A DNA stretch of 41,200 bases from a virus (Duplodnaviria > Caudoviricetes). This document shows positions 1 to 41,200 of the stretch, piece after piece. The position numbers and the translations under genes are program-made. Positions within the stretch are counted from its first letter, which is position 1; every line of letters starts with the position of its first letter. The notes below the pieces were generated by a model. The model saw only the letters and a program-made list of their open reading frames with translations, did not search any database and was not told the origin of the DNA. The stretch spans positions 1 to 41,200 of IMG/VR virus record IMGVR_UViG_3300036773_000196. The stretch is one strand, 5' to 3'.

Positions 1-1
1 C

Positions 2-253
2 GGCGGCGACGAGGCGAAGCTGCGCTATTGGGGCCTGCTCGAGGAACGCGACACGGTTCCGGAGGGCGGCGGCCGGACCTCCGGCGAATGGCGGCTCACG
101 GCGCGCGGCGTCTACTTCGTGCGAGACGCCCTCGTCGTGCCGCGCTATGCACTCATCTACAACGGCGAGTGCCTGAAGCTCGAGGAACCCCTGATCGGGA
201 TCCGGCAGGCGCTCGGGAAGAAGTTCAACTACGAGGAGTTGATGAAGCGATGA
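2..253 (+). CDS. 5'-truncated conserved phage hypothetical protein (AKLRYWGL...KFNYEELM); may continue from the ORF at 41068
   Basis: Open frame 2 from the window start to TGA at 251-253, with ATGA overlap into the next gene; not in the ORF track because it lacks a start. Confidence 0.7.
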   Translation, partial: GGDEAKLRYWGLLEERDTVPEGGGRTSGEWRLTARGVYFVRDALVVPRYALIYNGECLKLEEPLIGIRQALGKKFNYEELMKR

Positions 254-1072: not shown

Positions 1073-1329
1073 AGGGCGCGCCCGACGTCGGCTCGCTCTG
1101 GCACTACCCGCCGTGGACGAACCCGTCGTGGTCGGGCCCGTGGCGGGTGATCGGGGTCGGCCGCCGAAAGACGCACGAGTGGGCCGAACGGGTCGTGTTC
1201 CTCGAGCGGGTGGACGGGCCGCCGGAAAGCTGGCAGACCGAGCCCTACGAGGCGTCGTTCGAACACGCGGATTGGCCGGGCCTCTGGGAGCCGTGGCCGT
1301 CGGTGCCCGACTTCCCTCCCAGTAGTTAG
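1069..1329 (+). CDS. Trp/Pro-rich hypothetical protein
   Basis: GTGA-coupled start; C-terminal part of ORF 826..1329. Confidence 0.55.
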   Translation: MKGAPDVGSLWHYPPWTNPSWSGPWRVIGVGRRKTHEWAERVVFLERVDGPPESWQTEPYEASFEHADWPGLWEPWPSVPDFPPSS

Positions 1330-1516
1330 TTACCTGTTTGAGAGTAGTAGGGCCTGTGGAGAAGTCGCGAGGCGGCGTGAATCCCCTGCTCGGTGCGGGG
1401 ATCGGGCCTGTGGAAAGCCCTGTGGACGAATGGGGACAACTCTCGATTTGCAAATTGCGATTCGCGAAATGCACACCGTCCACAGCCCGGCGTCCACAGG
1501 CTGTGGATAACTCACA
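1321..1516. promoter_or_regulatory. oriC-like origin: DnaA-box cluster with DnaA-trio unwinding element
   Basis: Perfect TGTGGATAA at 1502-1510; variants TGTGGAGAA 1355, TGTGGAAAG 1409, TGTGGACGA 1421, TGGGGACAA 1431, CCGTCCACA 1476, GCGTCCACA 1490; minus strand TTCTCCACA-GGCC-CTACTAC (1363-1344) beside AT-richer 1321-1340; intergenic. Confidence 0.8.
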
Positions 1517-1581
1517 GGTGATTTATGCCGACGCCGACCGGGTGTAGTCTCGCGCGGCACCCACCACACGAAGGAGAAGCG

Positions 1582-1989
1582 ATGGCCCAACCACGACGCA
1601 CCCCCAGCCGCGATCCGGAGGACGACCACGATGACGGCGGCCCGCAGGACCCACCGGCGAAGAGCTTCGCCGTCTTCATCCAAGATCAGCGCGCCGGCGC
1701 CCTGCACAACGAACTCAGCGAGGCCCTCGCCGAGGTCGTCCAGCGGGTCATCGACCTGAACAAAGCCGGGTCGCTGGCGCTCTCGATCAAGGTGTCGCCG
1801 GCGGGCAAAGGGCAGGCGGCGGTGTTCATCACCGACGAGGTGAAATCGAAACCGCCGGAGGACAAGCAGTCCTTCATGTACTTCAGCGACGGCCACGGGA
1901 ATATCTCGCGGTCGAACCCGAACCAGCCCGAGCTTCCGCTGCGCGAGGTGCCAGCGCCGGAGCCGCGCGATCTACCACCGAGGAGCTAG
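1582..1989 (+). CDS. YfdP-like phage protein (usual partner of DUF2303)
   Basis: RBS GAAGGAG before ATG 1582; G.LH.ELSEAL..VV..V....KAGSL.L.IKV and GNISRSNPNQPELPL pattern; directly upstream of DUF2303. Confidence 0.75.
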   Translation: MAQPRRTPSRDPEDDHDDGGPQDPPAKSFAVFIQDQRAGALHNELSEALAEVVQRVIDLNKAGSLALSIKVSPAGKGQAAVFITDEVKSKPPEDKQSFMYFSDGHGNISRSNPNQPELPLREVPAPEPRDLPPRS

Positions 1990-1992
1990 ACG

Positions 1993-2889
1993 ATGGGACG
2001 ACACGAAGAAGGAACCGAGATCGAGGGCCAGCCGTTGACGGCCTCCCTCGGCCACATGGGCGGCGATGCCGCCGTCATCCGCGACATAACCGAGGCGACG
2101 TTCGAGCCGGTCGAGATCTCGCCGGACAAGCTCTACGTGCTGCGGCAGGCCGACGGCACGCTGAAGCCGACCAGCCTCGAGCGCTACCGGCCGACGCCCG
2201 ACCGCATCCGCGGCACCTACGAGGCGGCGACGGTGGAATCCTTCACCGACTACGTCCGCGAGTGGGCGACCGACAAAACGACCGTGTGGGTCCACCCGAC
2301 GTCGGCCTCGGTCATCGCCGTGATCAACGACGGCGATATGGGCGCAGATGCGATCGGGTGGCGCGATCACCGGGTCGAGTTGAAGCTGCTTCCCACGCCG
2401 GAGTGGACCTTCTGGAAAGACGGCTCCGGCAAACCGATGAACCAGCAGCAGTTCGCCGAGCACATAGAGGACGGGATGTCTCAAATCGTGGACCCGTCGG
2501 CCGCGACGATGCTCGAACTCGCGCAGTCGCTCCACGTGAAGACGAACGTCCAGTTCCGCTCGCAGATCGAGTTGCAGGACGGGTCGGCCAAGTTGCAGTA
2601 CGACGAAGAGGTTGAAGGTTCGGCCGGGAACAAGGGTCAGATCGTCATCCCCGAAACGTTCGAACTCGCGCTCGCGCCCTACGTGGGCGAGGACTCGTTC
2701 AAGCTGAAGGCGCGGTTCAGGTACCGGCCGCAGGGCGGCAAGCTGACCCTCGGCTACAAGCTGATGGATATGGAGCTCGCCGAACGGACGATCCTCGAAG
2801 AGATCGCGAAGAACGTCCGGAGCGGCATCGGTGCACTCGGCAAGGTCTACCTGGGCGCCGCGCCGGCGCCGTTGTCGGCCCAGTCCTGA
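1993..2889 (+). CDS. DUF2303 / YfdQ-family protein
   Basis: SF.DYV, GWRDHR, TPEW..W, MNQQQFAEHIED, IPETFEL...PY, ARFRYR motifs; AGGAG RBS. Confidence 0.85.
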   Translation: MGRHEEGTEIEGQPLTASLGHMGGDAAVIRDITEATFEPVEISPDKLYVLRQADGTLKPTSLERYRPTPDRIRGTYEAATVESFTDYVREWATDKTTVWVHPTSASVIAVINDGDMGADAIGWRDHRVELKLLPTPEWTFWKDGSGKPMNQQQFAEHIEDGMSQIVDPSAATMLELAQSLHVKTNVQFRSQIELQDGSAKLQYDEEVEGSAGNKGQIVIPETFELALAPYVGEDSFKLKARFRYRPQGGKLTLGYKLMDMELAERTILEEIAKNVRSGIGALGKVYLGAAPAPLSAQS

Positions 2890-2899
2890 CCCTCGAGTT

Positions 2900-2947
2900 C
2901 AGGCTGAGCGGTTCCACGTGAAACGCTCGTGGCGACCGCTCAGCCTG
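2900..2947. repeat. 13-bp perfect inverted repeat overlapping and enclosing the parS site (possible terminator)
   Basis: CAGGCTGAGCGGT (2900-2912) / ACCGCTCAGCCTG (2935-2947). Confidence 0.8.
2911..2924. promoter_or_regulatory. parS: chromosomal-type parS site (ParB/Spo0J binding)
   Basis: GTTCCACGTGAAAC, 13/14 match to the palindrome GTTTCACGTGAAAC; intergenic; 1.4 kb from the DnaA-box cluster. Confidence 0.75.
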
Positions 2948-3885: not shown

Positions 3886-4539
3886 GTGGCCGTGATCGTC
3901 ACCGCCCATCAGCCCACCTATCTGCCCGGCGTCTCGGTCATGGCGAAGATCGCTCGGGCCGACGCGGTCGTCTGGTTGGACGACGTCCGGTTCACCACGC
4001 CGGGTTTCGTCAATCGCAACCAGCTTCCGGACGGCACGTGGCTGACGGTGCCGGTCGAGCGCCGCGATCATCGGACCACCGTCCGCGAGGTCGTGCTCGC
4101 CGGCGAGAGTTGGAGGGCGGAGCACAGCAAGATCCTCCATGACCACTACTCGGAACTGGCCCACTTCGAGCCGCGCGTCCTCTACCTGCTGAACTCCGAG
4201 TGGGCCGACCCGGGCGGCCTGCTGGTCGATCTCAACTACAGGATGCTCGATCTGATCTTCGAGGGCCTCGGCTTCGCTCCCGTCCAGCAGCGGGAATCCA
4301 CTCTCGACTTCGGGCGCGGCGGTTCCCTGTCATCGCGGCTCGCGCGCATGGTGCGTGCGGTCGGCGGCACCGCCTACCTCGCCGCGCCGTCCCGACGCCT
4401 CGACCCCCACGCCTTCGCCGCCGAGGGCGTAGAGCTTCTCGCGTTCGACTTCGCCGGACCCAACCCGAGCGTCATCGACCCGCTGTTCCGAACCGGCCAG
4501 CTACCCACCGCCCCCCGCCAGGAGGTCACCGTCGCATGA
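3886..4539 (+). CDS. WbqC-like family protein
   Basis: AHQPTYLP...KIARAD..VWLDDV.F....FVNRN...WLTVPV, GGTAYL and SVIDPLF signatures. Confidence 0.8.
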   Translation: MAVIVTAHQPTYLPGVSVMAKIARADAVVWLDDVRFTTPGFVNRNQLPDGTWLTVPVERRDHRTTVREVVLAGESWRAEHSKILHDHYSELAHFEPRVLYLLNSEWADPGGLLVDLNYRMLDLIFEGLGFAPVQQRESTLDFGRGGSLSSRLARMVRAVGGTAYLAAPSRRLDPHAFAAEGVELLAFDFAGPNPSVIDPLFRTGQLPTAPRQEVTVA

Positions 4540-26094: not shown

Positions 26095-27465
26095 CTAGTC
26101 GCTGAGCAGCGCCGACAGGACGGCGTGGGCGAGCAGCGGCGGGACCGCGTTCCCCACCTGCTCGAATTGCTTCGTCTTCGATCCTTCGAACGGGTAGTCG
26201 GGGTGGAAGCTCTGAAGGACGGCCGCCTCCTCGAGGGAAACCCGGATCGCCCTCGCATCCTGGGCCGTCGGATCATTCAGATCCTTCTCGCCGCGATCCC
26301 ACACCGGCACGCCGAGCGACAAGCCTTTCGCCAGCATCGCCGGCGCGGGCTCATCGATCGGTCGTGATCGCGCCGGCGTCTGGCGCGGGTTGAGGTGCGT
26401 GATCCATCGGAGCCCGGCGGCGTCGTGCCCCACCTTCACGGTCGGTGCCGGCTCATCCTCGGCGCGGCGGGTCGCGTTGGACTCAGACCCCTGCACGATC
26501 TCCCTTTTCCACGCGCGGCCGACTTTGCCATCCAGCGTCGGTGCCGGGTCACTCAGCGGGCGCTCGTATGGGACCATGTCCTCGATCCGGCGGCTGTGCT
26601 TCATGGAGTTGGCGCCGGTGCGGAGCACGAGCCGGTCCCAGCTACGGGCCTTCTCCCCCAGCGTGAAGGACGGCTCGGTGGCGGGTCGACGATCGCGCTC
26701 GCGGTACTCACCCTCGTCGCCGTCGCTCGCCCGCGGGAAGCCGACCTCGTCCTCGGCCGCCCAGCCGAGGGCCTCGGCCATCGATACCCACGGCAGGATC
26801 TCGCCCTCCAAGGTCACCTCGTGCCGGGCCGGCTCGCCCTTGACGTAGCGCTGATGGGTCGGCCGCGGCGGGTGGGCGGGGCGGCCGTCGCGGCGAGCGA
26901 TGAGGATCGCCCGCTCCCGCGTCTGCGGCACGCCGTAGCGCTCGGCCTCGAGCACGCCGGTCCAGACCGACCACCCGTGGGCGCGGAGGATCGTCGCGCA
27001 GTGCTCCCAGAAGCCGAGCACCGGCGGCACCTGCTCCCACGCGATGTAGTCAGGGCGAAGGGCCAGCGCCCACCGGAGCGGCTCGACCACGAGCTCGGAG
27101 CGGATGTCCTGCCACGGCAGCCGCCCCGGCACGTAGGAGCCGTCCGCGACCGCCGCCGCAGCCTCGTACACCAAGGGCATATCCGCGATGCCCGCGCCCT
27201 TCCCCGCATTGGAGAACGTCGGGCAGGGCGGTGAGGCGATTGAAAGGGTGCTGTGCGTCCCCCACAGCCCCAGGAACGCGCTCTCGGCCACCGCCAAGGG
27301 GTCCAGCGCCGCAACGTCGGCCTGAAGGGTCCAGAGGCCCGCAGCCTCGCGGGTCTGACAGGCGGCGCCGTCCCACTCGATCCCGATCGGATGGATGCCG
27401 AGGGCCTCGGCGGCGACGTCCCAGCCGCCGGGACCCCCGAACTGGTCGATCGCGTGGACGATCAC
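26095..27465 (-). CDS. DNA (cytosine-5) methyltransferase
   Basis: DQFGGPGG, SPPCPTFS, WEQVPPV, YGVPQTRER, LQSF..DYPF.G, QVGNAVPP. Confidence 0.92.
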   Translation of the reverse strand: MIVHAIDQFGGPGGWDVAAEALGIHPIGIEWDGAACQTREAAGLWTLQADVAALDPLAVAESAFLGLWGTHSTLSIASPPCPTFSNAGKGAGIADMPLVYEAAAAVADGSYVPGRLPWQDIRSELVVEPLRWALALRPDYIAWEQVPPVLGFWEHCATILRAHGWSVWTGVLEAERYGVPQTRERAILIARRDGRPAHPPRPTHQRYVKGEPARHEVTLEGEILPWVSMAEALGWAAEDEVGFPRASDGDEGEYRERDRRPATEPSFTLGEKARSWDRLVLRTGANSMKHSRRIEDMVPYERPLSDPAPTLDGKVGRAWKREIVQGSESNATRRAEDEPAPTVKVGHDAAGLRWITHLNPRQTPARSRPIDEPAPAMLAKGLSLGVPVWDRGEKDLNDPTAQDARAIRVSLEEAAVLQSFHPDYPFEGSKTKQFEQVGNAVPPLLAHAVLSALLSD

Positions 27466-27698
27466 CGGCGGTCCTTATCTTCGTTGCGCCGCACCTGCCC
27501 GAATCCCTTCCCGAAGTATTCGGCATCCTGCCCGTCGCCCTCAACGGCGGATCGGCGTTTCGCATCCTCGGCGCTGTCGGCATAGACGAGGACCGTCGTC
27601 ACGCACCGGGAGATCCGCTCGACTTCATACGCCTTCTTCGGTTTCGGCTCGGGTGGCACCGTGCCTTGCGCCACCCGCGACCAGCGCTGCACCATCAC
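27462..27698 (-). CDS. hypothetical protein
   Basis: Overlap-coupled between the methylase and LAGLIDADG genes. Confidence 0.55.
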   Translation of the reverse strand: MMVQRWSRVAQGTVPPEPKPKKAYEVERISRCVTTVLVYADSAEDAKRRSAVEGDGQDAEYFGKGFGQVRRNEDKDRR

Positions 27699-28183
27699 GC
27701 GACCCGCTCGAGCGCGAGAAGCTCATCCTCGCGCCGCGCCGCCTCGCGGGCCTTGACCCGGAGGAAGGGCCGAAGGGCCGCGAGGAACTCGAGCACCTCT
27801 AGGCGGGCCAGCAGCCGCCAGCGATAGAGCGTCTGCCGGTTGCCGGGTGGATGCTCGATCCTGACCGTCCCACCGAGGCTGCCGAGATACTCGATCACCT
27901 CCCGATCGGTCATCCCCACCTGAACGATCGTCCTGCCGTTGGCGCGAGTGATGCAGCCCTCACCATCGAAAAGGCCGGCGATGTAGGCGAGATCCACGGG
28001 GTCGCGGGGCAGCGCCAACCGCGACTCCCGCACACCTCGCGGAAGCCGCGGAAGCGGCGGGAGTCCGTTCGCGTAGCGCCACTGCTGCTCACGGCGCCGA
28101 CAGACGAGGCATCCGGTCAGATCGCCGCAGTCGCAACTTCGCGGTGGACCCGATCGCCGCGCCGCCGTCGCCGGGCTGCTCAC
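27695..28183 (-). CDS. free-standing LAGLIDADG endonuclease-like protein
   Basis: DLAYIAGLFDGEGCI, V.MTDREVI, YRW, PFLRVK. Confidence 0.85.
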   Translation of the reverse strand: MSSPATAARRSGPPRSCDCGDLTGCLVCRRREQQWRYANGLPPLPRLPRGVRESRLALPRDPVDLAYIAGLFDGEGCITRANGRTIVQVGMTDREVIEYLGSLGGTVRIEHPPGNRQTLYRWRLLARLEVLEFLAALRPFLRVKAREAARREDELLALERVA

Positions 28184-29010
28184 TCGGTGTCCAGCGGCAG
28201 GCGCGACTTGGCGAGATCGGCGGCGATCGTCCGCAGGCCCGCACCGAGGAGGCGGGCGTCTTCCTGCGACACGTTCGCGCCGTCGCCATCGGGGCCGAGC
28301 AGTTTGGTGGCGACGTCCTCGATCGTCGGGGCGTGGTCGGAGATCACCTTGTGCATCCGCTGGCGCTGTTCCTCCATCGCAAACCCTTCTTCCTCGCTCC
28401 GTCCCCGCAGACGTTCCTCTGCGTCGGGGCCGTCATCGTCGGGCTGCGCTTCGCCGTCCTCGTGCTCGCGGGTGGGGAAGGCGGGTTCGGGCTTCTCCAT
28501 CGCGATCACGGCCGGCTCTTCGTAAGGCTCGATCCCCATCGCCCGGGCGAGCTCGGCCGCACCGAACCGGGCAGCGTCCAACACCTCGCCCATCTTCCCG
28601 GGATCCTCAAGGTCGGTCGTCATCGTCACATCCGCCTGATCGCCGCCCTTCGGCAGCAGCATGGTGGGCGCCAGCTTCCGGACCTGAATCGTGATTTTCG
28701 TTTGCATCGTCGTGTACTCCTTCGTGATCGGATTTATGAGCGGATTTGTGATCAGGAAATTGTCTGCATCGTGGTCCCAGAGGCCCCCGACGGCGAGGCC
28801 GGCGTCGTCCACCATGTGCCGGATGAAGCTCCCGGCGCTGATGCCGCCGGTCGGGTCCGGCCAATTCGGGGTGACGCGGCCACCGACCAGGTGGGCGGGC
28901 ACATCGAACGCGCTCGCGATGCGGGCCGTCATCCACTGGCCGCCCGTGATCGGTGGCGCCTCGCCGCCGCTGGCGAACCTGCTCGTGTCGAAGTCGTCGT
29001 AGCTAGCCAA
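28180..29010 (-). CDS. hypothetical protein; likely alternative in-frame start at 28707
   Basis: CACGAAGGAG RBS upstream of internal ATG 28707 (MQTKITIQV...). Confidence 0.55.
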   Translation of the reverse strand: MASYDDFDTSRFASGGEAPPITGGQWMTARIASAFDVPAHLVGGRVTPNWPDPTGGISAGSFIRHMVDDAGLAVGGLWDHDADNFLITNPLINPITKEYTTMQTKITIQVRKLAPTMLLPKGGDQADVTMTTDLEDPGKMGEVLDAARFGAAELARAMGIEPYEEPAVIAMEKPEPAFPTREHEDGEAQPDDDGPDAEERLRGRSEEEGFAMEEQRQRMHKVISDHAPTIEDVATKLLGPDGDGANVSQEDARLLGAGLRTIAADLAKSRLPLDTE

Positions 29011-29260
29011 TCTCCTCGCCTTCCTCTCCGCAGTTGGGGCAGTGAATCGTGTCGTGCCACTCGCCGGCGCGCGTCAGGGTCGAGTTGAACCAAAAGCTGT
29101 CCCATTCCGGCTCCGTCACCTCGCCCGCCTCGCAGTCCACCGAGCCGGGCCCGTCGTCCCGCAGGACGCGCATCGTCCCTTTGCAGGCGCAGTCGGGGCC
29201 GTGGTGTATCTCGCGACCGGGACAATCCTCGTTAGGGCAGGCCACCCTCACCCACGGCAT
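29003..29260 (-). CDS. Cys-rich putative zinc-binding protein
   Basis: CPNEDC, C.C.G, CPNCG. Confidence 0.6.
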   Translation of the reverse strand: MPWVRVACPNEDCPGREIHHGPDCACKGTMRVLRDDGPGSVDCEAGEVTEPEWDSFWFNSTLTRAGEWHDTIHCPNCGEEGEEIG

Positions 29261-29676
29261 CAGCGGATCCTCGCCGCGTTCGATTCACGCTGGCAGGTAC
29301 GGCAGTGACGCGAACCGCGTTTGTCCACACGGAGATTCTCGCCCGCGTACGGATGGCCCTTCGGGCAGTGTGTCTTTCGGGCGTGGGCGCCGCGCCGGTG
29401 ATTCTCGGCGTTGGTCACCGGCTCGAGGTGCCCCCAGTTGCAGCAGAGCGTGGTGGTGCATCCCCGATCGTGAACGTGGTCGATGTCCAGTCCATCGGCG
29501 ATCGGGCCGACGGCGAGTTCATAGGCGAGCCGGTGAGCGAGTACGAGCGTCTCGGGATCCACCCGAAAGATCCCGTAGCCGCGCGACTGGACCGCCCCCG
29601 TCCACGGCCAGCACTCGTCCGGCCCGCGGCGATCGACCTTCGCCCAGAAGCGCTCGGCTACCTCAACCCACGGCAT
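29260..29676 (-). CDS. HNH endonuclease with C-terminal Cys/His zinc-binding motif
   Basis: RFWAKVD...CWPWTG...GYG...AHR.AY...DH...C....CCN..HLEPVTNAEN; KTHCPKGH...CRTC. Confidence 0.9.
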   Translation of the reverse strand: MPWVEVAERFWAKVDRRGPDECWPWTGAVQSRGYGIFRVDPETLVLAHRLAYELAVGPIADGLDIDHVHDRGCTTTLCCNWGHLEPVTNAENHRRGAHARKTHCPKGHPYAGENLRVDKRGSRHCRTCQRESNAARIR

Positions 29677-29961
29677 CGTGGCCGTTCCTCCGGATCGCCG
29701 CCTCGGCGCGCTCGTGGATGTCCCGCAGGCGCTCGGCCAACTGCGCCACCGCGAGGTGGTCGGGGATCTCGGCGAACTGGCCTCGGCGCAGCAGCAGCGC
29801 CGCTTGGAACGTGGCCACCTGCTGAAGCGGATCACCGGCATCCTGGGCGAGCCTCCAAGCCCACGCGCGGAGATCGGGTCGGTGTGGAGACAGACGTCGG
29901 TGGCGGCGTCTATGAGGTGCTGATCCTCCTCGGAGAGGACACGCAGTCGTGGTGGGTGCAT
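29663..29961 (-). pseudogene. apparently frameshifted hypothetical gene
   Basis: ATG 29961 with RBS gives MHPPRLRVLSEEDQHLIDAATDVCLHTDP; protein-like sequence resumes in the -1 frame (DLRAWAWRLAQDAG...NGHDAVG*, stop at 29663). Confidence 0.5.
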
Positions 29962-30023
29962 CGGCTTCCTTCGTGGTCGTGGTGTGAGAGGCGGCGCCGC
30001 ATCACGCGGCGCCGCCGTGCTGC

Positions 30024-30398
30024 TCAGCCCTCGGCGCCGGCGACCTCGATCGTCGGCTCGCCGTCGGGTGCCTCGTCGCCCTCCACGAGGACCTTCTTCG
30101 AGAGAAGCTCCGAGAGGTGGCGCTTCACCTGCTCGACCGGCAGCGCCGGCCAGAGGTTGGCTTCGTGCAGGCCCTCGTACTGGGCCGCCAGTTCGTCGGC
30201 CGTCCGCGGGGCCGGGGAGATCGTCACGAGTTGCAGCACGGCCGTCTGCCCCTCGGTCAGGTTGTCGGCCTTCGCAGTCGATTTGCGGCTCGCGGATTTG
30301 CGCCGTTTGCGAGTGGTGGTTTTCGCTTTCGGGGCCGGCGTGACCTCGCGCGCCGTGGGCTCTTTGCCTTCCTCGGTGGGGGTGGTGCTCTCTGCCAT
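30024..30398 (-). CDS. putative winged-HTH DNA-binding protein with basic N-terminus
   Basis: LTEGQTAVL...RTADEL...VKRHLSELLSKK; AAGGAGG RBS. Confidence 0.6.
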   Translation of the reverse strand: MAESTTPTEEGKEPTAREVTPAPKAKTTTRKRRKSASRKSTAKADNLTEGQTAVLQLVTISPAPRTADELAAQYEGLHEANLWPALPVEQVKRHLSELLSKKVLVEGDEAPDGEPTIEVAGAEG

Positions 30399-30425
30399 CG
30401 GTTCCTCCTTCAGGATGTTGTCGGG

Positions 30426-30449
30426 ATGCTGTGGGCATCCTCACAGCAT
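30426..30449. promoter_or_regulatory. 8-bp inverted repeat upstream of the wHTH gene (candidate operator)
   Basis: ATGCTGTG-N8-CACAGCAT, intergenic. Confidence 0.4.
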
Positions 30450-30462
30450 GATCGGCGGGCGT

Positions 30463-30681
30463 TCAGGTAACGAGATTCACCCGAGCTTCCGCGGCCTCGC
30501 CGCGGCCGTCGACGATCCAGTTCGGGGGCGTGACGTGGAACGTCTTCCCCCTGATCTCCTCCGGCCAGACGTTCCCCTTCTCGTGCGGGCTGAAGGTGAC
30601 CCGCTCGTTCGCCACCGGCACCCGGTCGAGTGCCGCCTGACCCACGAGGATGCCGTCCACGAGCAGCGACACGCGCGGCAT
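30463..30681 (-). CDS. hypothetical protein
   Basis: TGATG-coupled to the upstream gene. Confidence 0.55.
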   Translation of the reverse strand: MPRVSLLVDGILVGQAALDRVPVANERVTFSPHEKGNVWPEEIRGKTFHVTPPNWIVDGRGEAAEARVNLVT

Positions 30682-31763
30682 CAGTCGGTCCCCGGCAGCG
30701 TGTCAGGCGCTTCCGGCGAAGGATCCTCGCCGGCGGGCGGGTCATCGTCGGGCGCCGGCGGGTCGCCCTCTTCGGCGGCGGCCTGCGCTGCCTCGGCAGC
30801 CTTCTTCGCGTCGGCCTTCTCTTTCCGCTCGCGCCGCCGTTTCTGCTCGGCCGTCTCCTTTTTCGCGGCCTCCTCGGCACCCTCCACCTTCCGTTTGCGG
30901 GCACCGAGCACGACGGTGATCCCGTCCGCGACGACCCCGGCGAGGGTCCCGGCGGTGACCTTCGAGGCGGCGTTGTAGGCGGCCTCGGCCGCTTTGTGAT
31001 CCTCCTCGAAGAGCCACGACAGAGCGCGGCTCAGAAGATCGGCCTGCTCTTTGGTCGCCGCGGCCACGGCCTGCGCCGGTGCTCCTTCCTCTTGGCCGCC
31101 GTTGGCCTTCACCTCCTCGGCGCCGGTCGTCTCATAGCCGGCCATGCCGACGATGAAGCCGAGGGCCTGCCGCAGGGCGCGGCTCTGGGCGCGCGTCTGG
31201 GCCATGCCCTTGACCGCCGATTCGCTCGAGTCGAACCAGTTCTCCTCCTCCCTCGAGCAGATCGCCTCGCCGCGACCGACGAGGCGGCCGTCCATCGTGC
31301 GGACCTCTGCGACCGCCTCCCACGACCAACCTTCGACCGCGTACTCGAACTCGGTTTCCTCGGTGACTTCGCGCTTGCCGTTGACCCACCCGTACTTCTT
31401 CCGCTTGGCTTTCGCGACGTAGGACGTCATCGGGTGGACGCGGGCGGTCGAGACGGTCATCGCCTGCAACCCGAGCAGCGTCCCGGCGGTCTGCCAGCCC
31501 TCGATTTCGACGTGCTTTTTCTTCCCGCCGAGGGCGACCGACAACTCCTGTTTGTCGATCACGTCTTTCAGCGCGGTGGCGACACTGCCCACCTGCTTGA
31601 TGATCTCGCCGGGGTCGCGGGTGTTCCAGAGCGTGGCGAGCTCGCCACCCTGGGCGGGGGGCGGCGCCGGCGCCAGGCCCGGCGCGCTCGGCACCACATC
31701 GCTACCGGGGGTGACCTCCTCGACCAATTCAGTCTCCGCGACCTCGTCGTGCTGATCGGACAT
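30681..31763 (-). CDS. putative single-strand annealing / recombination protein
   Basis: KKHVEIEGW, GRGEA.CS..E, GMAQTRAQSRALR......GY..T.AEE; charged tail. Confidence 0.55.
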   Translation of the reverse strand: MSDQHDEVAETELVEEVTPGSDVVPSAPGLAPAPPPAQGGELATLWNTRDPGEIIKQVGSVATALKDVIDKQELSVALGGKKKHVEIEGWQTAGTLLGLQAMTVSTARVHPMTSYVAKAKRKKYGWVNGKREVTEETEFEYAVEGWSWEAVAEVRTMDGRLVGRGEAICSREEENWFDSSESAVKGMAQTRAQSRALRQALGFIVGMAGYETTGAEEVKANGGQEEGAPAQAVAAATKEQADLLSRALSWLFEEDHKAAEAAYNAASKVTAGTLAGVVADGITVVLGARKRKVEGAEEAAKKETAEQKRRRERKEKADAKKAAEAAQAAAEEGDPPAPDDDPPAGEDPSPEAPDTLPGTD

Positions 31764-31787
31764 TCGTGCTCCTTCGTCGTGGTGTGG

Positions 31788-31813
31788 ACTTCCTACTTCG
31801 TGAAGTAGGAAGT
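31788..31813. promoter_or_regulatory. perfect 12-bp inverted repeat (candidate operator)
   Basis: ACTTCCTACTTC-gt-GAAGTAGGAAGT, next to minus-strand -10-like TAGTTT (31821-31816). Confidence 0.65.
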
Positions 31814-31901
31814 AGAAACTAGATTCCGTAGACCGCCCAATCGTAGGGGCGGCGTGGCCGCCACAGCGTGCGCCGTGGCGGCCAGTTCCATGCCGAGTGC
31901 A

Positions 31902-32282
31902 TCAGCCGTCCTCGTCGGGCGCCCCTTCCGCCGCACGCTGCACGAGGCAGAAGAAGCAGTTGCAGGGAGGCTCGTCCTCCGAGCGGGTGGACTCCACCGG
32001 GGGAAGCCGCATCGCGCCGAGTTGCAGGCCGAGGATCATCCCGGCCATCGCCGCGTCCATCCTCCCCTCTCCGCTCGGCACCATCGCGGCGAGCGCCCGC
32101 GTCACGCGGGCGACGTTCAGGCCGTGGCCGGCGAAAAATTCGTCGCGCCTGACGGTGCCGTCCGAAATGTGATCGTAGGTGTCCAGCATCATGTCGGTGC
32201 TGGGCGCCTTGGAGCGATCTAGCTTCTCGCCCCCCCCCTCAGGGGTCACCGGATCATTCATGCTCGCGTTCCTTTCTGACAT
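31902..32282 (-). CDS. hypothetical protein (C-terminal CxCxxC)
   Basis: TGATG-coupled ORF. Confidence 0.55.
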   Translation of the reverse strand: MSERNASMNDPVTPEGGGEKLDRSKAPSTDMMLDTYDHISDGTVRRDEFFAGHGLNVARVTRALAAMVPSGEGRMDAAMAGMILGLQLGAMRLPPVESTRSEDEPPCNCFFCLVQRAAEGAPDEDG

Positions 32283-32572
32283 CAGGTTCCCAATCCCTCG
32301 GGCGGGTCGTACTGCTCCCGGTGATCTCGCATCCCCGTGATCAGGATGCCGATCGCGTGGTCGTCCAGTTTGCCGTCGGACTTCAGGAAGCGGATCAGCC
32401 CCGCATCGCGCTCGGCCTCGATCGCCGCCGAGATCGCACGGATGCCGAGGGCCACGGCCTCCTTCGGGCTGAGTTGCCCGAACGGCCGATCATCGACGTA
32501 GGTCGCGACGAAGGGTTTCCCCTCCTTCGTCACCTGCCCGTGGGTCGAGAAGACGCCGCCGATGCCGGTCAT
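32282..32572 (-). CDS. hypothetical protein
   Basis: ATGA-coupled ATG at 32572. Confidence 0.6.
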   Translation of the reverse strand: MTGIGGVFSTHGQVTKEGKPFVATYVDDRPFGQLSPKEAVALGIRAISAAIEAERDAGLIRFLKSDGKLDDHAIGILITGMRDHREQYDPPEGLGT

Positions 32573-32775
32573 CGTCCCCACCCGAGATTCTTACTCGCGG
32601 CGACATAGGCGCCATTGTCGCGCCCCCGCAGCACCGACAGGCGGGCGATGACCGCATCGATCACAGCGACCTGATCATCGTTGGCCGGACCCGGCAGAAA
32701 GCGGTTCCACCGGAGACACGTTTCGACGTTTTCGCAGGCTTCCACCTCGGCGATCGTCGGCCATGCCGGACTCAT
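32569..32775 (-). CDS. hypothetical protein (MSPAWPTIAEVE...)
   Basis: ATGA-coupled; C-terminal part of ORF 32569..33411. Confidence 0.6.
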   Translation of the reverse strand: MSPAWPTIAEVEACENVETCLRWNRFLPGPANDDQVAVIDAVIARLSVLRGRDNGAYVAASKNLGWGR

Positions 32776-33446
32776 CGGGTCGCCACCTGCGGCTCTTTCC
32801 AGATCCGGACGCCGGGGATGACGAGGCCCGCCTTGGCCGACGCCGCCACTTTGCCTTTGTTCAGTACCCGGTCGAAATACTCGTCGGGGATGCGGCTCTC
32901 GTCCTGCACTTCGTACTTCGTCACTTCCTTGACGACGGTCTGGGCGAAGCCGCCGCTGGCCTTTTTCGGCGGCGGCGCCGGCCGGGTGGACGGTTTGACC
33001 GCCCTCGAGCGCCGCTGCTCTTCTTCGGCTTTTTTGTCCTCGCGGGCCTGCCGCTCGCGTTCGGAGCGCTCGGCTTTCTTGCGCTCTTCGTCGGCCTTCT
33101 TTTTCTGGGCGGCCGTGTATTTGGTGACCCGATCTTTGATCGAGTCCTCGGCCGCATCGTTGGTCGAGCCAAGCTCGCGGAAGCTGGCGAGCACTTCGCG
33201 GCCGTACTGGTCGTAGGGACCTTTCACCGCTTTGCTCAGCGCCGTGACGTCCTCGCGGGCGTGCCGCAATTCTTTGAGGGCGTCGGCGGCTTCGCCGAAC
33301 GTCTCCTGATCGGCGATCTCGGCCGGGAGCGTGTCGGCCAGTTCGCGGGCCTTGCGAAGCTTCTCCTGGGCCTCGGTGAACTCGGGCAGATCGCGGGGCG
33401 GAACGCCCCATTTCACGTCCGGCGTGGTCGTGGTGTCATCGCTCAT
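32772..33446 (-). CDS. coiled-coil protein with siphovirus Gp157-like C-terminus
   Basis: YEVQDESRIPDEY...NKGKV....KAG..IPGVRI. Confidence 0.65.
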   Translation of the reverse strand: MSDDTTTTPDVKWGVPPRDLPEFTEAQEKLRKARELADTLPAEIADQETFGEAADALKELRHAREDVTALSKAVKGPYDQYGREVLASFRELGSTNDAAEDSIKDRVTKYTAAQKKKADEERKKAERSERERQAREDKKAEEEQRRSRAVKPSTRPAPPPKKASGGFAQTVVKEVTKYEVQDESRIPDEYFDRVLNKGKVAASAKAGLVIPGVRIWKEPQVATR

Positions 33447-33636
33447 TCGTGGTGTCTCCTTCTTCCTTTTCCTTCGCCTGCTGGATCTCGATCTTCAGAC
33501 CGGCCCGCACCAACTCGTGCGCGCGTTTGGGCGATACGCCCAACTCTTCAGCCGTGCGCCGATACGTTTTCTTCCGCCTGTAGACGCTGAGCGCGTGCAG
33601 GCGGCGTTGCTCCGGCGTGGCCTCGTACTTCGGCAT
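33436..33636 (-). CDS. small HTH DNA-binding protein
   Basis: TYRRTAEELGVSPKRAHELVRAG; GAGGAGG RBS. Confidence 0.7.
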   Translation of the reverse strand: MPKYEATPEQRRLHALSVYRRKKTYRRTAEELGVSPKRAHELVRAGLKIEIQQAKEKEEGDTTNER

Positions 33637-33681
33637 CGAACCTCCTCGTCGTGGTGTGTCACCTAAACAGGTTGCGGCAGC

Positions 33682-34098
33682 CTACACCTCGTAGCCGGCC
33701 TCGCTGAGTTCGTGACCGATCGTCTGCAAGGTGGCGATGGCGATCCTTCCTCGCTGCGTCGGCTTCTCCTTCGCCTTGTCCTCGGCCGTGCGCATCCGGT
33801 CGATCACCTTCCGGAGCAGGCCGTCGACGTCGTCCGGCAGCAGCACCTTCCCGGTCGCCTTGTAGAAGTGCTCGACCGCGCCGCGGACCGGCCTCTCGTC
33901 CACGAGCACCACCGCGCCGAGTTTGAGCAGCGTCCGCATGTGGTAGCCGACGTGCCCGATCTCGAGCGTGTGCGCGGTGGCGATCTCCACCGGCGACCGC
34001 ACGGCGCCGCCCTTCAGTTCGGTGAGGATGATCCGCCGGGTCGGATGGTTCAGGGCTTGCAGGATCTCGGACTCTTCGCGGGTCGTCCTCGTGCTCAT
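33682..34098 (-). CDS. ArsR-like winged-HTH regulator
   Basis: ALNHPTRRIIL...SPVEIA...VGYHMRTL...RPVRGAVEHFY. Confidence 0.85.
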   Translation of the reverse strand: MSTRTTREESEILQALNHPTRRIILTELKGGAVRSPVEIATAHTLEIGHVGYHMRTLLKLGAVVLVDERPVRGAVEHFYKATGKVLLPDDVDGLLRKVIDRMRTAEDKAKEKPTQRGRIAIATLQTIGHELSEAGYEV

Positions 34099-34265
34099 CG
34101 TTCCTCCTTCGTCGGGGCCGTGGTCGGCCGCGTCTGCGATTCCTTGTCAAAGCCCCCGGCCACCGCCGCCGCCAGCAGCAGCGCGATGATCAGCGCGACC
34201 GTGACGATCGTCTCCACCCGTCGGATAGGCTGTGGCTTGGGCCTGTTGCTCTGTCGTGGTGTCAA
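34095..34265 (-). CDS. small single-TM protein
   Basis: GAGGAG RBS with TTG start; IVTVALIIALLLAAAVAGG; ATGA-coupled to the ArsR-like gene. Confidence 0.5.
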   Translation of the reverse strand: MTPRQSNRPKPQPIRRVETIVTVALIIALLLAAAVAGGFDKESQTRPTTAPTKEER

Positions 34266-34320
34266 TGGGTCTTCTCCTCGTGTGACGTAGGTGTCTGGGG
34301 CCGGGGCGCGCCGTAGGGCG

Positions 34321-34935
34321 CTAACCCCGGCCTCGGATACGTGCGGGGGCCGGGATGTCCTGCCCCCGCCAGAAGCTCCGGTGCCTGCGCGGGTGGTGCC
34401 ACGGGTGCGCGTGGGGCATCCGCCGCTCTCCGCCGGGCAGGGTGATCACGTTGACGCCGCTCGGCGGCGGTTCCACGACCGGGGGTGCCGCGACCGTGAC
34501 CGGCGCCCCCGGTTCCGCACAGACCGGCGCCATCACCGCGACGGGGGTCGCCCACGGGTCCGCCTGCATCACGGAGGTGGGATTGGTCGAGTGGCCGAGG
34601 CCGTGAAGGTGGCCCTCCTCATGGATGACGATCACGCAGGCGATCTCAGGGGTGATCACGCGCCCGGTGGCGGTCACCGTCCCGACTTCCGAAAGCTGCA
34701 TTTCGCAGGGTCCCGACCAACCGGGCGCCGGCTGAGTCGCATCGCCGCCCGCGCCGGGTATCGGCGCGAAGCCGATCGCCAGGGAGGTGCATTGGGTGGG
34801 CGGGCCGCCCCAGAATTCTTCGGCGATCGCCACGTCGCCAAGCGCCGTCGGGGCCGGTGCGGCGTGCGCGTGCCCGCCGTGGAGGACGAGGGCGAGCACC
34901 GCCGCCACCACCAGCCGCAGTGCCCGGCGCCTCAC
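34321..34935 (-). CDS. secreted metzincin (matrixin-like) zinc metallopeptidase
   Basis: Signal peptide ending AHA; HEEGHLHGLGH (HExxHxxGxxH) and Met-turn SVM. Confidence 0.8.
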   Translation of the reverse strand: MRRRALRLVVAAVLALVLHGGHAHAAPAPTALGDVAIAEEFWGGPPTQCTSLAIGFAPIPGAGGDATQPAPGWSGPCEMQLSEVGTVTATGRVITPEIACVIVIHEEGHLHGLGHSTNPTSVMQADPWATPVAVMAPVCAEPGAPVTVAAPPVVEPPPSGVNVITLPGGERRMPHAHPWHHPRRHRSFWRGQDIPAPARIRGRG

Positions 34936-35150
34936 GATCCCGCCTCCGCCCGCCGCGCGATCTCATCCTCGGCGCAGCGTTTGGCGGGGCGAAGGTCGGG
35001 CAGCCCGAAACCGACGTCGCGGTCACCGAGGATCGAGAAGTGCTCGTGCTCGCACGTCCAGAGGATGCGGGCCGGACTCTCCGCGTCATCCACGATGACG
35101 CCTCGGTAGCGGCCGTTGTCGAGCACTTCCCACCGTGCGCGGAGCATCAT
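34932..35150 (-). CDS. hypothetical protein
   Basis: Overlap-coupled; W.C.H.H motif. Confidence 0.55.
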   Translation of the reverse strand: MMLRARWEVLDNGRYRGVIVDDAESPARILWTCEHEHFSILGDRDVGFGLPDLRPAKRCAEDEIARRAEAGS

Positions 35151-35344
35151 CGACCGTCCTCTATCCGCTTGTCGATGATCGCCAACCGCACCTCATCGCG
35201 GGTGCGGGCGCCGGCACAGATCGCCTCCGGCAGCCCGACCCGTTTCGCCTCGCGGCGCAGATCGGCCCAGCCCATCGCCTTCAACTTCGCCACCTCATCC
35301 ATCACGTTCAGCGGCGTGACGATCTCCCTCTCCCCCGGCCTCAT
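35147..35344 (-). CDS. small hypothetical protein
   Basis: ATGA-coupled; LKAMGWADLRREAKRVGL resembles a helix-extension-helix. Confidence 0.55.
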   Translation of the reverse strand: MRPGEREIVTPLNVMDEVAKLKAMGWADLRREAKRVGLPEAICAGARTRDEVRLAIIDKRIEDGR

Positions 35345-36042
35345 TCGATGATCTCGCAGTCAAGGAAGAAGTCGCTGTGCTGGTCGCCCTGCCAGACGAT
35401 CTCGTTGTCCCACGGCTCGGCGCCGGGGAGGAGATCATCCATCTTGACGCTGATCCCGCCCTCGTAGTCCACCTGCGTGACCACGCCGTGGCGACCGTCC
35501 TCGGCCGAGAAGTGCGGGTAGCGCTGCACCACCTGACGGAGCCGCACGCGCTGACCCACCACCGGCGCGGAGCCGCCGTCGATCGCCTGATCGGGGAAGC
35601 GGCGTGAGGTGATGAAGTCGGAGCGGCGGCCGGGATTGCCCTTCGCGTCCCAGACCGCCAGCCGATCCGCGATCCACTTCTCGGCCGAGTCCACATCCTC
35701 GGCCGTGGCCCAGCCGCCGTCCCACTCGATCAGGACGCTCTCGTGCTCCGGCGCCTCGCCGGGGCCGAAGACCGCCTTCGCTTCCTCTTGGTAGTCGGCC
35801 TCGCTGTGCGTCTCGATCCGACCGTTCTCCCGGTAGACCTTCGACTCCCCGATCAGCGCGACCACCCGGTCCGGCGCCAGCGCGGCGCCGAGATCGGTGA
35901 AGCCCTTTTCAGCGTGGGCGAGGGAGCGGAACCCGGCCATCACGCCGAGCTTCTCGTCGCCGCTCTTCAGCGCGAAGGCGAAGAGGCCGTAGCCGTCTTC
36001 GTGGAACTCGAGGTGGACCGTCTGCTGCGTCGTGGTGCTCAT
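35341..36042 (-). CDS. hypothetical protein, first gene of the leftward operon
   Basis: GGAGG RBS and leader motif; acidic 233 aa protein. Confidence 0.65.
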   Translation of the reverse strand: MSTTTQQTVHLEFHEDGYGLFAFALKSGDEKLGVMAGFRSLAHAEKGFTDLGAALAPDRVVALIGESKVYRENGRIETHSEADYQEEAKAVFGPGEAPEHESVLIEWDGGWATAEDVDSAEKWIADRLAVWDAKGNPGRRSDFITSRRFPDQAIDGGSAPVVGQRVRLRQVVQRYPHFSAEDGRHGVVTQVDYEGGISVKMDDLLPGAEPWDNEIVWQGDQHSDFFLDCEIIE

Positions 36043-36085
36043 TCGTGTGACCCTCCGTCGTGGTGTGGAGAAGCGTTACCTAAAC

Positions 36086-36193: not shown

Positions 36194-36895
36194 ATGGCTG
36201 CCCGCAAGCCGACCACGAAAAAGCCGCGGCCGAAGTCCAAACCCGGCAAGGCCCCCGCATCGCCTCGGCGATCGCCTCAGCGCAAACAGCCCGCGCCCCC
36301 GCAGAGGAAGGGCAGCGCGAAAGCCAAGGCGAAGCCGAAGAGCGCCCCCGCCAAACCGGCCACGCCTCGCAAACGCAAACCGAAAGCGATCGGGCGCCCC
36401 TCCAAGATCTCGCAGATCGTCCGCGTGATGGTGCCGGAGAAGAACGGCAAGCTGCGCGCCCACTACATCACCGTGGCCGCGGCCTTCGTGAAGGTGCTCG
36501 CCACGGGCTGCTCGTTCGAGACGGCGGCGACCACCGTCGGCGTCTCCAAGGTGACCGCCTACGACTGGATCTCCCGCGGGGAGGAGGTCCGCGATATGGA
36601 GCCGGTGCCTGCCGATGCCGAACCGTTCTTGAACTTTGCGAACGACGTCGCGCGTGCGCGCGAGCAGGTGGTGACCTTGGCCCTCGCCGGCGTGCTCGAG
36701 GCGGGCAAGGCCGACTGGCGCGCCTTCGCGTGGTTCCTCGAGCGCAGTCGCCCGCAGGAGTTCGGGCGCCAGACCCGCATCGACCACGGCGCGATCGGGG
36801 CCGACGGTGGACGCCTGTCGATGGCCGAGCTCATGGCCGCCGCGGTAGCCGACCCGTCCACGGCAAGCGACGATGACGATCCCGACCTTTCCTGA
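36194..36895 (+). CDS. terS: terminase small subunit
   Basis: Lys/Pro-rich N-terminus, GRPSK, HTH (AATTVGVSKVTAYDW), DWRAFAWFLER..P.EFG; upstream of TerL. Confidence 0.75.
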   Translation: MAARKPTTKKPRPKSKPGKAPASPRRSPQRKQPAPPQRKGSAKAKAKPKSAPAKPATPRKRKPKAIGRPSKISQIVRVMVPEKNGKLRAHYITVAAAFVKVLATGCSFETAATTVGVSKVTAYDWISRGEEVRDMEPVPADAEPFLNFANDVARAREQVVTLALAGVLEAGKADWRAFAWFLERSRPQEFGRQTRIDHGAIGADGGRLSMAELMAAAVADPSTASDDDDPDLS

Positions 36896-37097
36896 AGGCG
36901 TTGTGATCGAGCACGACGAGGACGGCGCCCTCGTGGCGACCGGACCCGGCTTCACGCGGTGTGTCCGCTGGCCGGCGACGTGCGCCGAGGTGCGGGCGGC
37001 TCAGCTGACCTACTCGGCGCCGTGCGACTTCTGCTCTGGCCGGTGGGACGAAGGCGACCGCCCACGGCGGCGGCTCAGTGGCGACGCGAGCAGCTAG
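36873..37097 (+). CDS. small hypothetical protein between terS and terL
   Basis: Fills the gap and overlaps both neighbours; CDFC. Confidence 0.4.
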   Translation: MTIPTFPEGVVIEHDEDGALVATGPGFTRCVRWPATCAEVRAAQLTYSAPCDFCSGRWDEGDRPRRRLSGDASS

Positions 37098-41071: not shown

Positions 41072-41200
41072 ACGGCGAACTCTTCTGGGCGGCCATCCAC
41101 GCGCAGGGCGTCCGGATGTGCGCGGCCGGGATCGGGACCTTCGACGGGTTGCAGCGCCAGCGTCAGGCCCGGGTCCAACTGGTCGGCGGCGGCGGCGACG
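41068..41200 (+). CDS. 3'-truncated ORF, in frame with ORF 2..253 if the ends are joined
   Basis: GTGA-coupled start; open to the window end. Confidence 0.45.
   Translation, partial: MNGELFWAAIHAQGVRMCAAGIGTFDGLQRQRQARVQLVGGGGD
41190..41200 (+). repeat. 11-nt terminal direct repeat of positions 1-11
   Basis: CGGCGGCGACG at both ends. Confidence 0.6.

What the first reader, a model, noticed from the sequence alone, without database searches (positions are those of the whole stretch)
1321..2947. Candidate chromosome-mimic replicon: oriC-like origin, YfdPQ-like pair and parS in a phage with no recognisable replication, partition or integration genes
Seen: a DnaA-box cluster with an unwinding module and a chromosomal-type parS bracket a two-gene cassette within 1.6 kb. 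I recognised no initiator, helicase, primase, polymerase, ParA/B or integrase in the window. Known: bacterial chromosomes place parS near oriC, and these sites are read by host DnaA and ParB. Inference: the phage may replicate and segregate as a mini-chromosome (phage-plasmid) using only cis-sites, or may use the sites as decoys that titrate DnaA and ParB to stall the host cell cycle.
Basis: partly seen in the sequence, partly recalled or inferred. Interest (0 to 1): 0.92.

Follow-up and report, generated by a model that had tools for sequence, protein, structure and literature searches.

The report
Phage with a miniature bacterial origin
A group of soil phages in which we found no replication-starter, partition or integration genes carries a conserved small copy of the bacterial chromosome origin plus a host centromere site, so these phages likely let the host's own DnaA protein start copying their DNA.

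Summary
Positions 1311-1510 carry an oriC-type unwinding module (TAG trios, GGCC spacer, DnaA box) with six further boxes, followed by yfdP, yfdQ and a chromosomal parS (2911-2924). None of 300 simulated genomes reached this box cluster, trio score or parS. Four related phages keep the same layout. Two of them are complete circles, and seven replication, partition and integration families were not found in them. The same motif marks dnaA-dnaN origins in bacteria and lies in or beside initiator genes in unrelated phages. Best reading (0.6): a host-DnaA-driven phage origin, with parS recruiting host ParB. Three corrections: the window probably lacks about 1.55 kb; YfdP/YfdQ look like passengers (yfdQ is split in one relative, and 85 other viral yfdQ contigs lack the layout); and nothing shows a plasmid lifestyle. 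Strand skew gave no support, the strict three-trio rule is met in only two of five copies, and an unrecognised small initiator is not excluded. I found no such phage in print (nine searches). This scan has noted oriC-like modules in other phages before.

The parts
1311..1320 (+). Pyrimidine (CT) tract just beyond the AT-rich segment
   Evidence: Sequence; a similar tract precedes the trios in all four relatives and in six Streptomyces-like origins
1321..1350 (+). AT-rich segment ending in DnaA-trios (GAG TAG TAG at 1342-1350); predicted unwinding site
   Evidence: 63% AT; top-ranked candidate of the window under the published rule
1351..1363 (-). GGCC spacer and proximal DnaA box (TTCTCCACA on the minus strand)
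1409..1439 (-). Three co-oriented distal DnaA boxes, +54, +66 and +76 bp from the proximal box
   Evidence: relatives have +54/+66/(+76) or +45/+57/(+68)
1476..1498 (+). Two weaker DnaA boxes in the opposite orientation (2 mismatches each)
   Evidence: a pair at this place in all five phages
1502..1510 (-). Perfect DnaA box TTATCCACA next to the putative yfdP promoter
   Evidence: perfect in 4 of 5 phages, 1 mismatch in the fifth
1545..1550 (+). Putative -10 hexamer TAGTCT of the yfdPQ promoter
   Evidence: TAGGGT/TAGGTT at the same place in four relatives; that it is an actinobacterial -10 is recalled; the sigma-70 scan found no promoter
1582..1989 (+). yfdP-like gene, 135 aa
   Evidence: phrog_204, E 9e-23
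1993..2889 (+). yfdQ (DUF2303) gene, 298 aa; no ATPase or winged-helix fold match
   Evidence: Pfam E 2e-47; PDB 9O7M 'YfdQ Protein', 36 chains, E 3e-6; model pLDDT 85 without a clear fold match
2900..2947 (.). Hairpin (13-bp perfect arms 2900-2912 and 2935-2947) enclosing the parS site
2911..2924 (.). Chromosomal-type parS core GTTCCACGTGAAAC, the only one in the genome
   Evidence: identical core next to dnaA in 5 of 61 genomes of the likely host order

Best explanation
The 200-bp segment at 1311-1510 is a conserved miniature bacterial-type origin that likely lets host DnaA open the phage circle without a phage initiator, and the parS site likely recruits host ParB. Shown: the sequence anatomy, its non-randomness, its conservation in five phages, its match to bacterial dnaA-dnaN origins and to origin-proximal parS, and the failure to find replication, partition or integration genes in two complete relatives. 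Inferred from the Bacillus subtilis unwinding system: DnaA binds the distal boxes, is delivered by a loop to the proximal box, polymerises onto the trios and melts the AT-rich 30-mer, after which host helicase, primase and polymerase would be loaded. Inferred: ParB at parS would position or separate the copies (and may load SMC, recalled). The Gam-like and probable single-strand-annealing genes (32772-33446, 30681-31763) would then supply concatemers for packaging. YfdP/YfdQ are probably early accessory proteins whose promoter shares the last DnaA box, not parts of the replicon. Whether this serves lytic growth only or also a plasmid-like dormant state is open.
For: (a) Not chance: 0 of 300 simulations reach the box cluster, trio score or parS. 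(b) Layout trios - box - distal boxes - inverted pair - box - yfdP - yfdQ - parS is kept in G001, G002, G003/G008 and G004, whose YfdQ is only 43-60% identical, while the spacers diverge. (c) Distal boxes start at +45 or +54 and step by 10-12 bp; B. subtilis needs a distal box at 44 bp or more, in helical phase (PMC6669920 section 6). (d) Positive control: the pattern TAGNAGNAGGGCYTGTGGA occurs once each in 7 of 301 Actinomycetota genomes; 6 lie between dnaA and dnaN and the seventh directly after the dnaA stop. (e) In unrelated phages the same module lies inside an initiator gene (G009) or directly after initiator and DnaB-like helicase genes (L284, L303), the usual places of a phage origin. 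(f) Six-frame searches for seven families (PF00589, phrog_270, PF07508, PF13614, PF03796, PF09250, PF02195) found 0 of 4 clade genomes each, with controls ringing; G001 and G002 have terminal repeats and 100% completeness. The same kind of profile scan found an initiator, primase or replicative helicase within 6.5 kb downstream in 16 of 30 other yfdQ loci. (g) In the likely host order parS lies 1.7-3.7 kb upstream of the dnaA 3' end in 9 of 9 genomes where both were placed, the same order parS - genes - boxes - trios as on the phage minus strand (1.56 kb).
Against: (a) No function was tested. (b) GC skew at fourfold-degenerate sites does not switch at the site in the window, G001 or G002. (c) The published rule of three consecutive NAN trios is met at the aligned place in the window and G003, not in G001 or G002, nor by inspection in G004. 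(d) Profile searches can miss initiators: a 226-aa ORF that contains the module in G006, in initiator position, has no Pfam or PHROGs hit. A 124-aa winged-helix gene (30024-30398) is shared by all four clade genomes compared. (e) About 1.55 kb of this genome was not seen. (f) Phages that keep their own initiator also carry the module, so it can be an aid to an initiator rather than a replacement. (g) A clade member (L222, portal 53%) has a parS-like site at the same place but no boxes or yfdPQ in the 3.8 kb upstream that its fragment holds. (h) A strict trio-box pattern matched 0 of 121 genomes of the likely host order; their origins are more degenerate than the phage's.
Confidence: 0.6

Rival explanations
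1. It is the origin, but it needs an unrecognised phage initiator or loader (for example the conserved 124-aa winged-helix protein, or a gene in the missing 1.55 kb), with DnaA as helper as in iteron plasmids.
For: The module coexists with initiator genes in G009, L284 and L303; a likely initiator in G006 escapes both profile libraries; the winged-helix gene is shared across the clade.
Against: No iteron-like direct repeats other than DnaA boxes near the site; the winged-helix protein is a single small domain 12 kb away and its family (phrog_1123) also occurs in G006; proteins shared by the window and both complete relatives include nothing else of initiator type; the complete relatives have no gap.
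Confidence: 0.15
2. The sites are decoys: as the phage amplifies by another route (for example recombination-primed), the boxes titrate DnaA and parS titrates ParB, stalling the host cell cycle.
For: Phage boxes are closer to consensus than those of the likely host order; E. coli yfdQRST overexpression inhibits initiation (PMC4776307); Gam-like and probable annealing genes are conserved.
Against: A sink needs boxes only, yet trios, spacer, AT-rich segment and phasing are conserved; there is one parS per genome; the DnaA-binding protein in that paper is YfdR, which was not found here; no other origin or initiator was found.
Confidence: 0.1
3. The boxes are a DnaA-controlled promoter for yfdPQ, and the parS hairpin is its terminator or the control region of the downstream head genes.
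For: The last box lies 22-54 bp from a conserved -10-like hexamer in all five phages; parS overlaps a strong hairpin in the 4 layout-bearing phages folded and in L222.
Against: Does not explain the trios and AT-rich segment 200 bp away, nor the lack of replication genes; the region is intact in G003/G008 where yfdQ is split; the parS core is conserved while the hairpins differ in sequence and register. This role can coexist with origin function.
Confidence: 0.1
4. The segment is a captured, non-functional piece of a host origin region.
For: Order and distance of parS and origin resemble the host chromosome.
Against: Motifs are conserved while spacers diverge across five phages; no dnaA, dnaN or parAB remnant.
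Confidence: 0.03

Closest known systems
Basal unwinding system (BUS) of bacterial oriC, defined in Bacillus subtilis incC (PMC8287927, PMC6669920)
   Same: Proximal DnaA box, 4-bp GC spacer, three trios, distal boxes 44 bp or more away in helical phase, AT-rich segment.
   Different: On a phage, with no dnaA or dnaN beside it; single proximal box in the window (tandem in G004); trios minimal here and degenerate in three relatives; untested.
Host-type parS sites of Bacillus phage phi29 (PMC2731898)
   Same: A phage without ParB carries chromosomal parS read by the host protein.
   Different: phi29 has five sites, used for entrapment in spores, and its own protein-primed replication; here there is one site beside an oriC mimic.
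Extrachromosomal cluster A mycobacteriophage prophages without RepA (PMC7157519)
   Same: Actinobacterial phages lacking integrase and initiator that replicate from a non-coding origin.
   Different: They encode their own ParA/ParB and use an RNA-based origin; the paper never mentions DnaA (0 occurrences). Here no ParA/B is encoded and plasmid life is not shown.
DnaA-box pairs in the injection-stop region of T5-like phages (bioRxiv 10.1101/866236)
   Same: Conserved arrays of host DnaA boxes on a phage.
   Different: The author argues they are not origins, and T5 has its own replication genes; no trios or parS appear in the passages I read.
yfdP-yfdQ(-yfdR) of E. coli prophage CPS-53 and lambdoid phages (PMC4776307, PMC12315714)
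   Same: Same two gene families in the same order.
   Different: No yfdR/S/T here; there YfdR, not YfdQ, binds DnaA; elsewhere the pair sits in the early operon, often next to replication genes, without these sites.

Membership tests
BUS-type DnaA origin | DnaA box (at most 2 mismatches) 0-16 bp from at least three NAN trios | tested here: met
   Window: GAG TAG TAG, spacer 4, box TGTGGAGAA; best of 2 candidates in the window. Also met in G003; not met at the aligned place in G001 and G002.
BUS-type DnaA origin | Distal DnaA box at least 44 bp from the proximal one, in helical phase | tested here: met
   +54/+66/+76 here; +45 to +76 in relatives
BUS-type DnaA origin | DnaA-ATP-dependent strand opening and autonomous replication | not testable with these tools
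   Needs a strand-separation assay and a replication test
BUS-type DnaA origin | Replication-associated strand skew switching at the site | tested here: inconclusive
   No switch at fourfold-degenerate sites in three genomes; mixed replication modes of phages could hide it
Chromosomal parS | 14-bp palindromic core GTTNCACGTGAAAC (consensus recalled) | tested here: met
   2911-2924; same core beside dnaA in genomes of the likely host order
Chromosomal parS | Bound by host ParB | not testable with these tools
   No binding data
Phage-plasmid | Virion genes and no integrase | tested here: met
   Head and tail genes; no tyrosine or serine integrase in 4 clade genomes; 1.55 kb of this genome unseen
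Phage-plasmid | Own initiator and partition genes (P1/N15 type) | tested here: not met
   0 of 4 genomes for phrog_270, ParA (PF13614), ParB (PF02195)
Phage-plasmid | Seen as a stable extrachromosomal element in a host | tested here: inconclusive
   No close relative among plasmids (best capsid identity about 32%) or genome contigs (YfdQ at most 41%); the host group is mostly uncultured
YfdQ / DUF2303 | Match over the Pfam cut-off | tested here: met
   162 bits against cut-off 26.6
CPS-53 yfdQRST initiation-inhibiting cluster | yfdR (the DnaA-binding member) with yfdS or yfdT | tested here: not met
   No such gene follows yfdQ; no matching family among the window's proteins

The most novel reading that the evidence does not exclude
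A phage family that has given up all its own replication, partition and integration genes and lives as a viral mini-chromosome: host DnaA fires its oriC copy in step with the cell cycle, host ParB segregates it from a single parS, and it persists as a plasmid-like prophage built from cis-sites alone.
Probability: 0.3. Interest if true: 0.92.

Novelty: new variant of a known kind. Interest (0 to 1): 0.76.

Why it matters
Phages are expected to bring their own initiator or polymerase so that they escape the once-per-cycle control of host DnaA. A natural phage that replicates from an oriC copy alone would be a replication strategy I did not find described, would explain some of the many uncultured phages with no recognisable replication genes, and would offer naturally evolved 200-bp minimal DnaA origins (with a parS) for testing how general the basal unwinding system is and for building vectors in little-studied soil actinobacteria.

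Tried and rejected
Completeness of the window: I first read the 11-nt terminal repeat and open frame as proof of a closed genome; withdrawn after searches showed a second 1,605-nt contig entering at position 1 and the missing 5' third of the first gene. Whether that contig also joins the window's other end remains open. YfdQ as initiator or helicase: model gave no Foldseek match at E 0.001 and best Z 6.6 over 67 residues; PDB 9O7M did not appear in either structure search. YfdPQ as an obligate part of the origin: rejected (85 other viral contigs, and 84 genome or metagenome loci, lack boxes plus parS beside it; yfdQ split in G003/G008). GC skew: no signal. dif site: no XerD-arm match in the window and none at a shared non-coding place in relatives (motif recalled). 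Rfam: nothing. A tandem-box viral pattern found 0 contigs; a promoter-side pattern found 117 loci but no new clade member (37 of them had short flanks). Single-sequence locus search found nothing. Searching 121 genomes with P0257 rang nowhere. No RNA holder listed. Two contigs whose lengths matched the window or its inferred full length (L310, L280) are unrelated. No complex prediction was run, since the report claims no protein-protein binding.

Full report
What the window is. The window is the whole contig: a 68% GC tailed phage with terminase (36194-38472), portal, protease, capsid, tape measure and lysis genes on the + strand, and an early block on the minus strand (26095-36042) with a cytosine methylase, HNH and LAGLIDADG nucleases, three small helix-turn-helix genes, a Gam-like gene and a probable single-strand annealing gene (the last two assignments rest on weak hits). 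Named homologues point to an actinobacterial host, probably Solirubrobacterales (one named hit each); this is inference. One public run, a soil metagenome that may be the source, holds it.

The observation. The total number of boxes in the window is ordinary (13 against 10.0 +/- 3.6). The cluster is not: 5 boxes in 200 bp against at most 3 in 300 simulations, and neither a two-TAG unwinding candidate nor the parS arose in any of the 300. The module meets the published search rule (PMC8287927; I read passages and the methods section).

Conservation. Alignment-based scans gave 89 distinct viral contigs with yfdQ. Four of them (G001, G002, G003, G004; YfdQ 43-60% identical) have the same layout, and none of the other 85 has boxes and parS together beside the gene; one has a box cluster 6.6 kb away and one a parS 5.4 kb away. 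None of 84 genome or metagenome loci has a parS, and none has more than 3 boxes in 200 bp. In the five phages the motifs are kept while the spacers diverge. Distal boxes lie at +54/+66/(+76) or +45/+57/(+68); in B. subtilis a distal box must be at least 44 bp away and in helical phase (PMC6669920; passages and section 6). Against this, the strict three-trio rule is met at the aligned place only in the window and G003; G001, G002 and G004 have TAG-rich but interrupted trios.

Comparison with real origins. A pattern drawn from the phage junction matched 7 of 301 Actinomycetota genomes, once each, six between dnaA and dnaN and one directly after dnaA. In that order 10 of 61 genomes have an exact parS, 5 with the phage's own core, and in 9 of 9 where dnaA was also placed it lies 1.7-3.7 kb upstream of the dnaA 3' end. 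The phage minus strand shows the same order at 1.56 kb.

Absence of replication genes. No initiator, helicase, primase, polymerase, ParA/B or integrase was found among 78 (Pfam) and 66 (PHROGs) frames of the window or among 104 further six-frame stretches outside the structural block. G001 and G002 are complete circles; 96 non-structural proteins of G001-G003 gave nothing of this kind (a subset also). Six-frame searches for seven families gave 0 of 4 clade genomes each, with controls ringing. By contrast 16 of 30 other yfdQ loci (30 chosen from the 85 by identity; only ORFs of 215 aa or more; three had none) carry an initiator, primase or replicative helicase within 6.5 kb downstream, as does the annotated phage Bridgette. 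Two caveats. First, a 226-aa ORF in initiator position in G006 has no family hit, so such negatives can miss an initiator; a 124-aa winged-helix gene shared by the clade is the remaining candidate. Second, the window itself is probably incomplete: two contigs enter at position 1, one of 49 nt that fits direct closure over the 11-nt repeat and one of 1,605 nt, and the first 54 codons of the first gene are not at the window's end. About 1.55 kb was therefore not seen, and the argument rests on the complete relatives.

The module in other phages. An exact 18-mer of the junction occurs in 11 viral contigs, 9 unrelated to this clade. It lies inside an initiator gene in G009, inside the unnamed ORF in G006, and in non-coding DNA in others in which the proteins I scanned showed no initiator (called genes of 110-800 aa, part of them for G007, G011, G012 and G013; G010 and G014 not scanned whole). 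In L284 and L303 a variant follows initiator and helicase genes. This places the module where phage origins are, which supports origin function, but shows that it can work beside an initiator. Four of these phages encode a tyrosine or serine recombinase, so the module does not imply plasmid life.

YfdP and YfdQ. YfdQ matches DUF2303 and a 36-chain PDB entry; its model shows no ATPase or winged-helix match. In E. coli, yfdQRST overexpression inhibits initiation, but YfdR is the DnaA binder and YfdQ, S and T showed no high affinity for DnaA (PMC4776307; abstract and Discussion); no yfdR is present here. Another paper says the pair has no known function (PMC12315714; one passage). In G003/G008 (one virus, 99.99% identical) an inversion splits yfdQ and alters the end of yfdP while origin and parS stay intact. 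L222 has a parS-like site at the same place without yfdPQ or boxes in the 3.8 kb it holds. The pair is most likely a passenger whose promoter lies next to the last DnaA box.

Mechanism and odds. Most likely (0.6) host DnaA opens the phage circle at the trios and host enzymes do the rest, with ParB bound at parS; these steps are inferred from the B. subtilis system and untested. Rivals are a DnaA-assisted origin with an unrecognised phage initiator (0.15), decoy sites (0.1), a DnaA-controlled promoter only (0.1) and a dead capture (0.03). Strand skew gave no support for any origin. Nothing shows a plasmid state: no close relative is among plasmids or genome contigs; I put the full mini-chromosome reading at 0.3.

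Known work and novelty. Closest are the bacterial basal unwinding system, host-type parS on phi29 (PMC2731898; abstract and passages), RepA-less plasmid prophages of mycobacteria (PMC7157519; passages) and the DnaA boxes of T5 (10.1101/866236; passages). Nine full-text searches listed no paper describing a phage that replicates from a trio-bearing oriC copy without an initiator; I judged most from listings only, the library lacks most subscription papers, I read no supplements, and the paper behind PDB 9O7M was not found. Earlier notes of this scan report similar modules in other phages; they are unchecked and not independent support. What this case adds is clade-wide conservation with parS in host order, two complete genomes without replication or integration genes, and controls.

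Noticed in passing
window 1-30 and 41171-41200: 11-nt terminal repeat; in run X1 a 49-nt contig (depth 25) and a 1,605-nt contig (depth 20) both enter at position 1, suggesting a population with and without about 1.55 kb, possibly a deletion between short repeats.
   Followed up: partly
L021 5945-6740 (G003/G008): About 0.8-kb inversion splits yfdQ and alters the yfdP 3' end, with no inverted repeat of 8 nt or more at the breakpoints; seen in two near-identical assemblies.
   Followed up: partly
L097-L107, L284, L303: oriC-type unwinding modules in at least ten unrelated viral contigs, inside initiator genes, after initiator-helicase genes, or in non-coding DNA of phages with no initiator seen.
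   Followed up: partly
L099 3790-4470 (minus strand): 226-aa ORF in initiator position that contains the module but has no Pfam or PHROGs hit; possibly an unclassified initiator family.
   Followed up: partly
L002 9314-9345 (G001): A second box faces the AT-rich segment from the far side with its own TAG trios on the other strand, a mirror-image arrangement.
   Followed up: no
window 36064-36072 and 29321-29329: Two isolated perfect DnaA boxes; the first lies in the divergent early/terminase control region but is not conserved in G001-G003.
   Followed up: yes
window 3886-4539: WbqC-like gene directly before the portal gene in all clade members, with terminase about 6.5 kb away across the contig ends.
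   Followed up: no
window 30681-31763: 360-aa protein that looks like a Rad52/Sak-type annealing protein only by weak language-model hits (0.88-0.89); the same slot in G001 and G003 holds a different family (phrog_10048).
   Followed up: partly
L316 (viral contig): Dense DnaA-box array with a parS 775 bp away, in front of terminase genes of an unrelated phage.
   Followed up: no
PDB 9O7M: A YfdQ structure with 36 identical chains exists, suggesting a large oligomer; no paper found.
   Followed up: partly
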